This document shows, in pieces, positions 18 through 47,928 of a stretch of DNA of 64,000 nt. Below the pieces are notes generated by a model, which saw only the letters and a list, made by a program, of their open reading frames with translations, was not told the DNA's origin and did not search any database. This stretch comes from Promethearchaeota archaeon (GTDB lineage: Archaea > Asgardarchaeota > Lokiarchaeia > Sigyniarchaeales > SOKP01). The position numbers were made by a program, and so were the translations under genes. The stretch covers positions 128,001 to 192,000 of the forward strand of contig JBHLOY010000006.1 in the NCBI GenBank assembly GCA_048939995.1. Reading direction: 5' to 3'. Each line of letters opens with the position of its first letter. Position 1 is the stretch's first letter.

Positions 18-746
18 TTACACCTCTATTGATTTTAAATATTGTTCATCAATTTTAATAGGATGCCCCATAGTAGTTTTCAGATACATAGATTTAATAT
101 TATTATACTTATGGGGCATTTGCTCAGCAATATAATCAACTACAGCTTTCAAATTTTCAAAAACATGTTCTTTTTCCATCGACTTTTTTCCAATTTTGAC
201 TTGTATTTGAGGTTGTTTTTTTAATTGAATTCGAATAGCTTTTAAATATCGCTCTATAGCAACTTTTAAATCATCTGGATTAGAAATTATTCCATATCCA
301 CTAGGGAAAGGTTTTGGCATTTTACCAACTGGGCCTAAAAATCGAGCAAGATATCGAGCCAAGTTTGGCATCATTTTATCTTCTACGACAAAAAAATCGT
401 ATTTTTTAACAAATTTCTTTTTATATTTTTTTTCTTCGTTATTCAATTTAATTAAACCCTCTTCATCCAGAGTATCTAAACCTAATTTCTTTGCTTCTAA
501 GAGAATGTCATCTGAAGCGACAACACATATATTTGGATTTTCGGAGATAATAACATTGTTAGGTAAGAGGACTTCTTTATCAATTCTCTGTTTTGGGTCA
601 TTCAAATTTAGATCTTTAAGATTAATGATAAAATCTATGCTTTCATCAAAATTTCTAACCTTGTCCTTAAAACCTTTTTTTTGTTTCACTGAAAATTTAA
701 TTGCTGCATTTAATGATTTTCTTAACATTTTATCGTCTAATTTCAT
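18..746 (-). CDS. rpl1: 50S ribosomal protein uL1
   Basis: RNFDESIDFIINL, LGPVGKMP and YLKTTMG motifs; directly downstream of rpl11, as in the archaeal L11-L1-L10-L12 operon. Confidence 0.96.
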   Translation of the reverse strand: MKLDDKMLRKSLNAAIKFSVKQKKGFKDKVRNFDESIDFIINLKDLNLNDPKQRIDKEVLLPNNVIISENPNICVVASDDILLEAKKLGLDTLDEEGLIKLNNEEKKYKKKFVKKYDFFVVEDKMMPNLARYLARFLGPVGKMPKPFPSGYGIISNPDDLKVAIERYLKAIRIQLKKQPQIQVKIGKKSMEKEHVFENLKAVVDYIAEQMPHKYNNIKSMYLKTTMGHPIKIDEQYLKSIEV

Positions 747-749
747 TTA

Positions 750-1284
750 TTAAATCTCACCTTTTATTTGATCATCAAAATCCCCATTATCAATTTTTTT
801 CTGAATTTCTCGTGGATCCTTTCCTTCAACAGTAGCCCCTATCGATAGCACTGTACCTAATACTGTTTTTAAGGAATTTTTAAACGTTTTATCTAAGAAT
901 CTTTCTTTTTTAGCAATCGCAACAGCAATTACTTGTTCCAATGTTAAATTACCAATCTTTGTTTCTGAAGCTGAAGCACTTCCTTTCTCAACACCCAATT
1001 CTTTCAGAAGAAGGGATGCAGTACTTGGAGTTTCAACAAAAATTTCAAATTGCTTAGTTTCGGGATCACATTCAATCCTAACTGGAACTGTTAATCCCTT
1101 AAAGATCATAGTTTTCTCATTGACAGCATCGACTACATCTTTAATGTTTATACCTGTTGGGCCTACGGCTGGACCTATAGGTGGCCCTCCTGACGCATTC
1201 GGGGTTTATTCTAAATGAATATTAAATTATAACTCTCCCACCAGTCACAAGAGCCTTTACAATTAATTTTCCTTTAGTACTCAT
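750..1284 (-). CDS. rpl11: 50S ribosomal protein uL11, intron-containing; join(complement 1235..1284, 750..1197), 165 aa after splicing
   Basis: The ORF track gives only the C-terminal 119 aa. ATG at 1284 encodes MSTKGKLIVKALVTGG; after a 37-nt insertion, another frame continues ASGGPPIGPAVGPTGINIKDVVDAVNEKT into the listed ORF. Confidence 0.93.
1198..1234 (-). other. Putative BHB (tRNA-type) intron in rpl11, 37 nt
   Basis: Central helix UGGG/CCCG, bulges AG^A and AA^U, intron stem GUU/AAC plus UAUUC/GAAUA, exon stem GGCUCUU-G-UGAC/GUCA-G-GAGGGCC. Contains an in-frame UAA; removal restores the frame. Confidence 0.85.
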
Positions 1285-1290
1285 GCAATT

Positions 1291-1295
1291 TCACC
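1291..1295 (-). promoter_or_regulatory. Shine-Dalgarno-like GGTGA, 6 nt upstream of the rpl11 ATG
   Basis: Minus strand reads GGTGA-AATTGC-ATG; supports 1284 as the real start. Confidence 0.7.
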
Positions 1296-1514
1296 GTTTT
1301 GCTTGATTATTTAGTAAAAAAATATACTTAAAAGGTCAAGAACGTAAAATTAAATTCGTTGTCAATTTTTATTCCAATATGTTTTATATCGAAACCGCTT
1401 TAATTTGCGTCCTAAGTCTTTTAAAAGTATATTTTGAACTTAGTATGAGAAAAAATGTATAAAAATTAATAAGTTTTATTATAATGTCTAAAGGGTCGAA
1501 TAGAAATTTATAGG

Positions 1515-1779: not shown

Positions 1780-2454
1780 CTAAGTTTCTTCTAAAATGAC
1801 CTTGTGTGTGATTCTGCCAATTTTCTCAATCGATGCTTCAATTGTATCTCCTGGTTTAATAGGTGATATTCCACTTGGAGTCCCTGTTGCTATGATATCC
1901 CCTTTTTCTAAAGTCACAAATTTCGAGAGATATTCTAAAATTGCTGGGATTTTAAAAATCATATATTTAGTGTTGGAGGACTGTCTAACCTCATCGTTTA
2001 CTTTTAATTCAATATCAAGATTATGGGGTTCTTGAATCTCATTAACATCTTTTATAATAGGACCTATAGGTGCGAAAGTATCAAAATTTTTACTTCTATA
2101 CCATGGCAAATTAATATTTCTATCAGCTATTTGCATATTTCGAGCGGTTAGATCAAGAATTATGGTATAACCTTGAATATATTCAAATGCAGATTTAGCT
2201 GGAATGTGTTTGCATTTCTGATTTATGATAAATGCAAGTTCAACCTCATGATCCACCCTATTAAACTCTTTATTGTCAAATAATATTTTTGGGTAAATGA
2301 TTGACTCATTATTCATTATGAGTGTATTTATAGTTTTAACGAAGAAAACTGGTTCTTTAGGTATAGGCGCTTCTGTTTCTTTAATATGTTCTAAATAATT
2401 CCTTCCCAGACATAATATTTTTGTGGGATTAATTGAAATATTCCCAATTTTCAT
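1780..2454 (-). CDS. Fumarylacetoacetate hydrolase family protein
   Basis: KILCLGRNY, EPVFFVK, VDHEVELA, SKNFDTFAPIGP and GDIIATGTP motifs. Confidence 0.93.
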   Translation of the reverse strand: MKIGNISINPTKILCLGRNYLEHIKETEAPIPKEPVFFVKTINTLIMNNESIIYPKILFDNKEFNRVDHEVELAFIINQKCKHIPAKSAFEYIQGYTIILDLTARNMQIADRNINLPWYRSKNFDTFAPIGPIIKDVNEIQEPHNLDIELKVNDEVRQSSNTKYMIFKIPAILEYLSKFVTLEKGDIIATGTPSGISPIKPGDTIEASIEKIGRITHKVILEET

Positions 2455-2463
2455 CTTTAATAA

Positions 2464-3138
2464 TCACTCTCCTTCTAAAATTACTTTATTTGTAAGTGTA
2501 CCAATGTTTTCGATTTTTGCTTCAATTAAATCACCTGGATTGATTGGACCAATACCTCCAGGGGTTCCGGTAGCGATAATATCTCCTGACTCCATCGTAA
2601 AAAATTTACTAATATATTCTAATAATTTTGGAACTTTAAATAATAAATGTTTTGTGTTCGATGATTGTTTAATTTCTCCATTTACCTTTAATTCAATTTT
2701 TAGATTATGAGGATCTTCAATGCTTTTAACATCTCGTATAATTGGGCCTATAGGCCCAAATGTATCAAAAGATTTTGATCGGAACCAAGGTAACTTAGAA
2801 ATTATATCTTTAGCTTGCATTTTACGTGCTGTAACATCATTAAATACGGTATATCCAAGAATATATTTATAAACATCATTAGCAGCTACATACTTGCATC
2901 TAGTTTTTATAATGAATGCTAATTCAACCTCATAGTCAACTCGGTTATATTTGCGATTCTGATATAACCATTTAGGATAAATAATTGGTTCTCTATCTAA
3001 GATCAAACAATTTGGAGTTTTAGGGAATAAAACAGGCTCTTTTGGGATTTCTAATTTTGTTTCTTCAATATGGTCCATATAATTTGTACCAACGCAAATT
3101 ATTTTAGTAGGTTCAATGACTTTATCTCCAATTTTCAT
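2464..3138 (-). CDS. Fumarylacetoacetate hydrolase family protein (tandem paralog)
   Basis: Same motifs (VDYEVELA, SKSFDTFGPIGP, GDIIATGTPGG). Start moved to ATG 3138 (MKIGDK), which matches the paralog's N-terminus and 224-aa length. Confidence 0.92.
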   Translation of the reverse strand: MKIGDKVIEPTKIICVGTNYMDHIEETKLEIPKEPVLFPKTPNCLILDREPIIYPKWLYQNRKYNRVDYEVELAFIIKTRCKYVAANDVYKYILGYTVFNDVTARKMQAKDIISKLPWFRSKSFDTFGPIGPIIRDVKSIEDPHNLKIELKVNGEIKQSSNTKHLLFKVPKLLEYISKFFTMESGDIIATGTPGGIGPINPGDLIEAKIENIGTLTNKVILEGE

Positions 3139-3320
3139 GACCTCATTTATCTCCTTAAGATAATTACATTTTAACAACAAAAACATTCTAATCTTTACTA
3201 TTTGAAGAAAAACCAACTATATGCATCTAAATAACGTTTAAATTTTAAAGATAATTAATTTTCAGAAAAGTATAATTGGTATTGAAAATATATTTTATAG
3301 ATTAATTATATAACATTTTA

Positions 3321-46506: not shown

Positions 46507-47928
46507 TTATTCATTTTTTTTCAAATAATTAATAATTTTTTTACGTTTTTCTAACGATCTTAAAGCAGACGCTTCAATTTTTTTTTCCATTATATCCTTT
46601 CTTTCAGGGAGTTCCTCTCCAACTTCTTGCTTAATCTTTGTGTAAGCTGATTCTCTAAATCTTGGCAATATTGTTTCTGCTTTCTTATCTTTATATATCA
46701 TTTTTATTTGTTTTGAATCATCCACATAACCAATTTCTGCGCATTTTACATTGATTTTTGATAAATCTGAAATTATTTCTTTTGTAATAGATTTAGAACA
46801 GTAAATTAGTAGAGCATCTAATGAAACACCTAAATAATCAACTCCAACTCTTTCTAGTAAAGCCAAGACTGCTGGATTTACTAATTTTTTTACCTGCTCC
46901 TCATAAATTTTAACACCACACCCTGCTTCATAATTGATTTCATATAGATCTCCTCTAAGTCCTCCATTTGTAATATCACACATTGCTCTAATTTCTTCTA
47001 TATAATTCTTTGAAAGAATTTCTTTACACGCTTCAAGAAATTTAATATTCATCGTTTCGCTTATGATTTCATGATTTCCTGAATATATTGCTGTTGTTGT
47101 AATTGTTCCACCCCCTGCCCCTTCTGTCATCAAAATTTTATCCCCTACTTGAATATTCCGTCTAGCTAAAAGATTATCTTTTAAAATACCTACAGCGCTT
47201 ACTCCACCAACTAAACGATCTCCAATCACCATATCTCCTCCGATTCTTAAAGTAGATCCCGCAGTAATGGGTACACTTACTAACTCTGATATAGTTGATA
47301 TACCAGCCATAAAATCAAAAAGTTTACCCACATCAGCGTCATCTCCTAGGTGAACATCGACCATAATGGATATTGGTGTTGCACCTTTAACGTATAGATC
47401 TCGTAGTGCAGCTCTCGATACGCTTCATGTAAACCCATTACATGAAATTACGTGAAAACCACACACAAATGGAAAGTCGCTCAGCCGACTATGGATGCCT
47501 TCCATTTTAGATACTATTATAAGTTCATTTTCAGCTTCAAATCCTTCAATATCAGAAAGTCTTACTGCACCAGCATCATCTAACGAGCTTGGTGATAAAA
47601 ATGATTTATAATCGGTTTCTGACAATTCTGTTACCAACTTATGAACAAAAAAATCCCCTGCTCCTCGGCAACCGACACCCTGCTTACCGATTGTTACACC
47701 TGAATTATGAATCTCTAATAATTCTCTTACAAATCTATTGGATACATATTTTAAATCACTTTTCTTACACTCTTCTAAGATCGTTTTTGCATATTTCTGG
47801 GCAGATTGTAAATCAATATCTTTAAAATCAAGATATTCTTTGACCAATCTTTTTATAATAACTTCCTCAGAATTTCCTTTTTTCATTAAATTTCTTGTTA
47901 AACCTTCTAGATCACTCAAATTTTTCAC
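46507..47928 (-). CDS. PurM/HypE-like AIR-synthase-related protein, intron-containing; join(complement 47448..47928, 46507..47417), 463 aa after splicing
   Basis: The two listed ORFs are in the same frame and form one protein: GVGCRGAGDF, LDDAG, GIHSRLSDFPF..GFHV / TRAALRD..., GSTLRIGGD, DITNGGLRGD, PRFRESAYT. Confidence 0.9.
47418..47447 (-). other. Putative canonical BHB intron, 30 nt
   Basis: Exon stem GUGUGGUUUUC/GAGAGCUGCAC, central helix ACGU/GCGU, bulges AA^U and AU^C, perfect 9-bp intron stem UUCAUGUAA/UUACAUGAA. Contains an in-frame UGA; splicing gives GUA ACG AGA (V-T-R). Confidence 0.9.

What the first reader, a model, noticed from the sequence alone, without database searches (positions are those of the whole stretch)
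1183..1255. 37-nt relaxed-BHB intron interrupts ribosomal protein uL11 just before the GPP motif
SEEN (sense RNA): GGCUCUUGUGACUGG-UGGG-AGA-GUUAUAAUUUAAUAUUCAUUUAGAAUAAAC-CCCG-AAU-GCGUCAGGAGGGCC. The central helix is UGGG/CCCG, the bulges are AGA and AAU, and the exon stem has 7+4 bp. The exon-side closing pair is a G-G mismatch, so this is a relaxed BHB/bulge-helix-loop form. Unspliced mRNA stops after 20 codons (UAA at 1222-1224) and is frameshifted. Removing 1198-1234 gives GGG AG|U GCG, i.e. VKALVTGGSASGGPPIGP and a full 165-aa uL11. Both exons look intact, with a good SD and the normal operon position, which argues against a pseudogene. INFERENCE: it needs an EndA that accepts relaxed substrates.
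Basis: partly seen in the sequence, partly recalled or inferred. Interest (0 to 1): 0.9.

Follow-up and report, generated by a model that had tools for sequence, protein, structure and literature searches.

The report
tRNA-type mini-intron in Asgard ribosomal gene
The only gene for ribosomal protein uL11 in this Asgard archaeon is broken by a 37-base insert with the shape and conservation of an intron cut out by the tRNA-splicing enzyme, a kind of messenger-RNA splicing that the papers I could search report inside only one other archaeal coding sequence; no spliced RNA has been seen yet.

Summary
Observation confirmed. The single-copy uL11 gene of a Lokiarchaeia (Promethearchaeia) MAG carries a 37-nt insert (1198-1234, minus strand). 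It shifts the frame and stops translation at codon 21. Removing it at the tRNA-endonuclease cut positions gives 165 aa with GGSASGGPP, as in intron-free relatives. The insert is identical in another assembly and in a run from another study. In 13 distinct homologous inserts the 4-bp central helix is intact at the canonical cut (13/13; 0-4 when the cut is slid). A synonymous exon base covaries with the intron, and carriers lock an exon-exon stem that 47 non-carriers lack. Relatives carry similar inserts at three more uL11 sites, patchily, most sharing an NNNUC-loop hairpin. The genome encodes a two-subunit EndA with the broad-specificity loop, and RtcB. It has BHB-shaped inserts in at least three other genes. 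Best reading (0.9): a relaxed-BHB mRNA intron spliced by EndA and RtcB. Splicing is inferred; no RNA holder was listed. The nearest precedent is crenarchaeal cbf5. The scan noted the same kind of intron before on other Lokiarchaeia DNA, including uL11.

The parts
1291..1295 (-). Shine-Dalgarno GGTGA, 6 nt before the ATG
   Evidence: sequence
1235..1284 (-). uL11 exon 1 (codons 1-16 plus AG of Ser17)
   Evidence: against 16 carriers, 39 synonymous versus 1 nonsynonymous differences in codons 9-16
1198..1234 (-). 37-nt AU-rich intron; shifts the frame by one base and holds an in-frame TAA at 1224-1222
750..1197 (-). uL11 exon 2 (T of Ser17 to stop)
   Evidence: PF03946 positions 10-58 and PF00298
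1234..1240 (-). 5' strand of the central helix (UGGG) and 5' bulge AG|A; cut between 1235 and 1234
1197..1203 (-). 3' strand of the central helix (CCCG) and 3' bulge AA|U; cut between 1198 and 1197
   Evidence: variant 1200 C>T turns U.G into U-A
1207..1221 (-). apical intron hairpin with pentaloop AUUUA (family consensus NNNUC)
1241..1255 (-). 5' arm of the exon-exon stem; G1241 faces G1196 as a G.G mismatch (relaxed motif)
1183..1196 (-). 3' arm of the exon-exon stem
18..746 (-). uL1 gene, next in the operon, with its own GGTGA inside the uL11 3' end
47418..47447 (-). second BHB-shaped insert in the window (30 nt, in-frame stop) in an AIR-synthase-related gene; removal gives a 464-aa ORF
   Evidence: found by homology without using the motif

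Best explanation
A tRNA-type (relaxed bulge-helix-bulge, HBh'/BHL-like) intron in the uL11 pre-mRNA. The transcript folds a long exon-exon stem, which presents a 4-bp helix flanked by the AG|A bulge and by an AA|U site opened by a G.G mismatch (sequence shown, fold predicted and supported by covariation). The two-subunit EndA cuts after the second nucleotide of each bulge, using its CSL lysine for the relaxed side. RtcB joins the exons and restores the Ser17 codon and the frame. Both enzyme steps are inferred from cbf5 and tRNA biochemistry. Unspliced mRNA gives a 20-aa peptide, so full-length uL11 depends on splicing (inferred). The intron is most likely a tolerated passenger, not an essential regulator: close relatives lack it, use other sites, or have the joined form.
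For: Single copy. Identical in another study and another assembly. Central helix 4/4 at the canonical cut in 13/13 distinct site-A inserts versus 0-4 for slides of -6 to +6; the other sites give 7/12, 3/3 and 20/20 versus 0-2. The Gly15 wobble base covaries with the intron: U-A 6, A-U 5, U.G 2. 94.7% of cells pair versus 36-59% when slid, and RNAalifold recovers the central helix and exon stem unaided. Gly16 is GGG in 17/17 carriers and 14/61 non-carriers. Exon-stem energy is -15.7 to -20 kcal/mol in 15 carriers and -2 to -13.6 in 47 non-carriers. Codons 9-46, translatable only after splicing, are under purifying selection. EndA alpha is most similar to A. pernix EndA and has the CSL K-P-R and the Tyr/His/Lys catalytic residues; a second paralogue and an intact RtcB are present. 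The CSL confers BHL cleavage (PMC3241643). An allele 97% identical to a carrier over codons 51-164 lacks exactly the predicted intron and keeps the stem (L409).
Against: The G.G mismatch makes the motif non-canonical, and the central pairs have only 0.45-0.64 predicted probability at 37 C. The 13 inserts are related and flanks can travel with the intron, so the covariation counts overstate independent events. EndA substrate range was inferred from sequence, not assayed.
Confidence: 0.9

Rival explanations
1. No splicing: a truncated uL11 is made from an internal start (ATG 1109, 119 aa, or the ATA-type start used by gene callers, 142 aa), and exon 1 is a dead remnant.
For: An in-frame ATG exists and databases call such products. 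uL11 is dispensable for viability in some bacteria (own knowledge).
Against: Codons 9-16 and 18-46 change almost only synonymously among carriers. Exon 1 has the SD. Four different insert sites all keep BHB geometry.
Confidence: 0.03
2. Ribosomal bypass or programmed frameshift over the hairpin (like T4 gene 60), with no RNA cutting.
For: A stop codon lies in a short AU-rich hairpin a few codons after the possible take-off.
Against: No matching take-off and landing codons: the landing frame offers only ACC, CCG and AAT after its own TAA (sequence). Insert lengths vary from 28 to 38 nt in all three phases while the BHB geometry stays fixed. The split codon AG|T rebuilds the Ser seen in most intron-free relatives.
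Confidence: 0.03
3. The insert is excised from DNA in part of the population (programmed rearrangement).
For: The joined form exists in public assemblies of relatives (L409, L413).
Against: No recombinase site or terminal repeat. G.U pairs are kept, which points to an RNA structure. The joined alleles differ from the nearest carrier at about 10% of 5' positions or more and show graded decay of the stem (-18.9, -11.9), which fits old precise loss.
Confidence: 0.02
4. Pseudogene or assembly artefact.
For: The genome is a MAG with 5% contamination.
Against: Single copy; identical in another study and another assembly; 21 of 31 congeners with a match are split in the same manner; purifying selection.
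Confidence: 0.01

Closest known systems
cbf5 pre-mRNA intron of Desulfurococcales and Sulfolobales (Watanabe 2002; Yoshinari 2006; Yokobori 2009, PMC2738675)
   Same: Short (16-44 nt there; 28-38 nt here), no ORF, mostly relaxed BHB, cut between the 2nd and 3rd bulge nucleotides, breaks a conserved coding motif, patchy presence, hetero-oligomeric EndA in the host.
   Different: Different phylum (Asgard) and gene (a universal ribosomal protein). Four sites within 34 codons, up to three introns per mRNA. Shared apical hairpin. Mosaic 5' blocks between species. Further interrupted genes in the same genome. Splicing was shown for cbf5 and is not shown here.
HVO_1309 5' UTR BHB intron of Haloferax volcanii (Schwarz 2020, PMC7714728)
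   Same: EndA-processed mRNA intron of similar size (46 nt).
   Different: Lies in a UTR and does not break the reading frame. That paper names cbf5 as the only other mRNA case.
Non-canonical tRNA introns of Asgard archaea (Goswami 2026, bioRxiv 10.64898/2026.10.13.758758) and Thermoproteales
   Same: Same motif and enzyme, repeated gains, two EndA paralogues in most genomes, route of arrival unknown.
   Different: tRNA genes only; the paper has no mention of mRNA or cbf5.
IRE1/RtcB splicing of HAC1/XBP1 mRNA in eukaryotes
   Same: Spliceosome-independent removal of a short frame-shifting intron by an endonuclease and a tRNA ligase (own knowledge; for the class).
   Different: Unrelated nuclease, twin stem-loop signal, regulated. 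No regulation is shown here.

Membership tests
Archaeal BHB (EndA-spliced) intron | 4-bp central helix formed by exon 1 and the intron 3' end | tested here: met
   UGGG/CCCG; 13/13 homologues; one two-sided change
Archaeal BHB (EndA-spliced) intron | Cuts after the 2nd nucleotide of each 3-nt bulge give the correct product | tested here: met
   The homology-defined junction equals the canonical cut, uniquely for this locus
Archaeal BHB (EndA-spliced) intron | Intron-side helix h' | tested here: met
   First pair G-C or G.U in 13/13; 3-bp helix 94.6% paired with two-sided changes
Strict hBHBh' motif | Exon-side helix h closes directly next to the bulge | tested here: not met
   G.G in 13/13, then G-C and a long stem; therefore the relaxed HBh'/BHL class
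Archaeal BHB (EndA-spliced) intron | Host encodes an EndA of a type that cuts relaxed motifs, and a ligase | tested here: met
   Two paralogues; alpha with CSL K-P-R and catalytic residues; intact RtcB. Sequence level only.
Archaeal BHB (EndA-spliced) intron | Spliced RNA or excised circular intron observed | not testable with these tools
   No RNA holder was listed for this stretch
Archaeal BHB (EndA-spliced) intron | Cleavage by EndA in vitro | not testable with these tools
   Needs an assay
Group I, group II or homing-endonuclease intron | Ribozyme core or internal ORF | tested here: not met
   37 nt, no ORF; no relevant Rfam match
T4 gene 60-type translational bypass | Matched take-off and landing codons | tested here: not met
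   None in the sequence; lengths and phases vary across carriers

The most novel reading that the evidence does not exclude
The uL11 inserts are one family of mobile mini-introns. They share an NNNUC-pentaloop hairpin, have reached four neighbouring sites, and move between species inside short recombination tracts although they encode no endonuclease. The shared hairpin may also be a protein-binding site that makes splicing of the first gene of the uL11-uL1 operon regulatable. This would sit on top of multi-gene mRNA splicing by the tRNA machinery in a large Lokiarchaeia family.
Probability: 0.25. Interest if true: 0.92.

Novelty: new variant of a known kind. Interest (0 to 1): 0.78.

Why it matters
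The papers I could search name one archaeal coding sequence with a spliced intron (cbf5) and one 5' UTR. Here a universal ribosomal protein, and probably MetRS, PurA and others, would need the tRNA-splicing machinery in a close prokaryotic relative of eukaryotes, with up to three introns in one message. That makes intron gain and loss observable across about 60 alleles of one short gene. It also gives an abundant mRNA as a direct target for the first demonstration. Practically, uL11 is a phylogenomic marker and is mis-annotated in these MAGs; one NCBI record begins with intron-derived residues (NVM45580.1).

Tried and rejected
RNA: no RNA holder listed; this is no evidence either way. Contigs of four runs, marked as probably DNA, showed no 1197/1235 joint; contigs cannot show absence.

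Spliced product: the protein database held no full-length match to this species; the closest 165-aa hits were 84% identical. Seven intron-free contigs of relatives were read. One (L409) carries the joined junction with the carrier-type stem, but its source type is unknown, and a similar ENA contig (L413) includes the promoter, so I read both as DNA alleles and not as spliced RNA.

Genome-wide screen without the motif: it found three other BHB-shaped frame-breaking inserts in 1.3 Mb but missed uL11 itself. The count is a lower bound, and the blank in outgroup G044 (235 kb) is uninformative. A motif-based scan gave many false fusions of neighbouring genes; I trust only candidates that restore a recognisable motif.

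Other blanks: a metagenome pattern search gave mostly chance hits, 4 were uL11. Loci of other genera could not be cut out. No second copy of the intron was seen among the listed hits (output cut short). No reverse transcriptase PF00078 in the 98%-complete genome. No Rfam match.

The CSL is also present in outgroup G044, whose uL11 is intact, so it is permissive and does not explain the distribution.

Literature: my recollection that two DPANN papers describe protein-gene introns was wrong. Nine literature searches found no report of Asgard mRNA introns; most subscription journals are not searched. One search timed out; some searches were input slips.

Full report
OBSERVATION. On the minus strand uL11 starts at ATG 1284 behind a GGTGA SD, reads 20 codons and stops at TAA 1224-1222. 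The rest of the gene continues in another frame to 750, with uL1 3 nt downstream. Deleting 1198-1234 gives 165 aa with VTGGSASGGPP. The genome (98% complete) has no other uL11. A contig from another study covers 1057-1418 with no difference, and more distant contigs keep the insert length, with a change at 1200 that turns a U.G pair into U-A. A second NCBI assembly is identical around the insert. Named relatives are Promethearchaeota/Lokiarchaeia MAGs such as Loki_b32, AMARA and CSMAG.

DISTRIBUTION. Of 31 congeners with a match, 21 have a split uL11 and 10 do not. All 23 matched genomes from other families of the class are intact. Spliced alignment that uses protein homology only finds inserts of 28-38 nt at four sites: codon 17 (site A, this finding), 24 (B), 28 (C) and 34 (D). 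Some alleles carry two or three. Among 62 distinct close alleles, A is in 17, B in 10, C in 3, D in 22, and 25 have none. DNA matches that span site A also occur in at least four other genera of the family.

STRUCTURE. At the canonical cut (two nucleotides into each 3-nt bulge) the 4-bp central helix is complete in 13/13 distinct site-A inserts, against 0-4 when the cut is slid by up to 6 nt. Sites B, C and D give 7/12, 3/3 and 20/20 against 0-2. The random rate is 2.5%. The first central pair joins the wobble base of Gly15 to the intron and covaries (U-A 6, A-U 5, U.G 2). Over 22 pairs, 94.7% of cells pair, against 36-59% for slid partners. RNAalifold recovers the central helix and exon stem on its own. 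The exon-side closing position is G.G in all carriers, so the motif is relaxed. Behind it lies a long exon-exon stem whose synonymous positions are nearly fixed in carriers and variable in non-carriers; duplex energies do not overlap (-15.7 to -20 versus -2 to -13.6 kcal/mol). These sequences are related and flanks may travel with the intron, so the counts are not independent events.

THE GENE IS ALIVE. Against 16 carriers, codons 9-16 differ by 39 synonymous and 1 nonsynonymous changes in total, and codons 18-46 by 264 and 12 (the comparisons share one reference). These codons lie upstream of the first internal ATG. The split codon AG|T rebuilds Ser, the commonest residue in intron-free relatives. 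One carrier rebuilds Lys, the commonest outgroup residue.

MACHINERY. Two EndA paralogues are present, as in most relatives. The catalytic one is most similar to A. pernix EndA (E 5e-37) and keeps the loop motif K-P-R and the Tyr, His and Lys catalytic residues. In A. pernix this loop confers cleavage of BHL substrates (PMC3241643). RtcB is intact. The loop is also in an outgroup with an intact uL11, so it permits the introns but does not explain them.

MECHANISM. Shown: the sequence, frame restoration, conservation of geometry, and the presence of the enzymes. Inferred: folding in vivo, cutting by EndA at 1235/1234 and 1198/1197, joining by RtcB, and dependence of full-length uL11 on splicing. 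Not shown: any spliced RNA; no RNA holder was listed. Truncated translation, ribosomal bypass, DNA excision and pseudogene readings each fail on specific points (see rivals).

EVOLUTION (inference). Site A needs at least 12 changes on the exon tree. L409, 97% identical to carrier L219 over codons 51-164, lacks exactly the predicted intron and keeps the stem (-18.9). L413 keeps the junction with a decayed stem (-11.9). Together they fit precise loss. The 5' block is mosaic between congeners: L053 and L025 are 93-95% identical far upstream and 90-100% over the rest of the gene, but 40-77% across the leader and codons 1-30. L050 resembles three different lineages along the gene. This intron is 95% identical to that of L047, whose fourfold sites are 50% identical. 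That means strong constraint or lateral exchange; chimeric assembly is not fully excluded. An apical hairpin with an NNNUC pentaloop occurs in 39 of 48 inserts across all four sites (about 3 expected from shuffles), but in only 1 of 9 candidate inserts of other genes; this locus has the variant AUUUA. Site D inserts resemble A, B and C above shuffles (z 8-12), while A versus B does not. Common descent and a common ligand both fit; neither is tested.

NOT ALONE. Homology without the motif finds BHB-shaped frame-breaking inserts at window 47418-47447, at C17:377452 and in metG. HMM searches show purA with an internal TAA and metG lacking its N-terminus in frame. The motif scan restores recognisable motifs in purA, a mevalonate-kinase-like gene, a MoxR-like gene and a CoA-transferase-like gene (names from motif recognition). 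The true number is unknown because the screen also missed uL11.

COMPARISON AND NOVELTY. It works like the crenarchaeal cbf5 intron (PMC2738675). It meets every sequence-testable feature of a relaxed BHB intron and fails the strict hBHBh' form. In 2020 cbf5 and a Haloferax 5' UTR were the only mRNA cases named (PMC7714728). A 2026 preprint on Asgard introns covers tRNA only. My searches found no report of Asgard mRNA introns. Public gene calls are truncated or start inside the intron. This scan has recorded the same kind of intron, also in uL11, in other Lokiarchaeia genomes; these are unchecked AI notes and I used them as leads only.

VERDICT. New variant of a known kind; confidence 0.9; interest 0.78.

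Noticed in passing
window 47418-47447 (-): A second 30-nt BHB-shaped insert with an in-frame stop in an AIR-synthase-related gene; removal restores HVTRA as in the congener and gives 464 aa.
   Followed up: yes
G000 C7:109926(-), C6:82172(+), C17:377452(-), C7:20329(+), C28:379867(+), C38:64707(+): BHB-shaped 30-32-nt inserts in purA, metG, an unidentified gene, and MoxR-, mevalonate-kinase- and CoA-transferase-like genes. Weaker candidates at C11:421825(+) and C11:276117(+).
   Followed up: partly
uL11 loci L032-L052, L201-L243: An NNNUC pentaloop hairpin is shared by inserts at all four uL11 sites (39/48) but is rare in inserts of other genes; unexplained.
   Followed up: partly
L031, L053, L025, L050, L047 (uL11 leader and codons 1-35): The 5' block of the operon has a different history from its flanks, which suggests local recombination tracts that carry introns.
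   Followed up: partly
L409:36-533 (ENA ERZ25073491): Intron-free allele with the exact joined junction and carrier-type exon stem; the contig starts 35 nt before the start codon; RNA or DNA origin unknown.
   Followed up: partly
G000 whole genome: ARAGORN finds only 20 tRNAs in a 98%-complete genome, several misassigned, which fits multiply interrupted tRNA genes.
   Followed up: no
window 1341-1354 (-): A TTTAATTT box followed by CGTTCTT is conserved upstream of uL11 in congeners; probable promoter, not tested.
   Followed up: no
window 1780-3216 (-): Two tandem similar genes (224 and 250 aa) that look like fumarylacetoacetate-hydrolase-family proteins by their motifs; not run against a family library.
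   Followed up: no
L205, L213, L217, L224, L228, L231, L198 record titles: Several records titled Thorarchaeota, Hodarchaeota, Hermodarchaeota, Odinarchaeota or Nanopelagicaceae carry uL11 genes 70-84% identical to this one, so the record names are probably wrong.
   Followed up: no
G008 C11 near 38148 of the stitched contig (-): A 30-nt stop-containing hairpin insert in a congener gene whose G000 homologue is intact.
   Followed up: no
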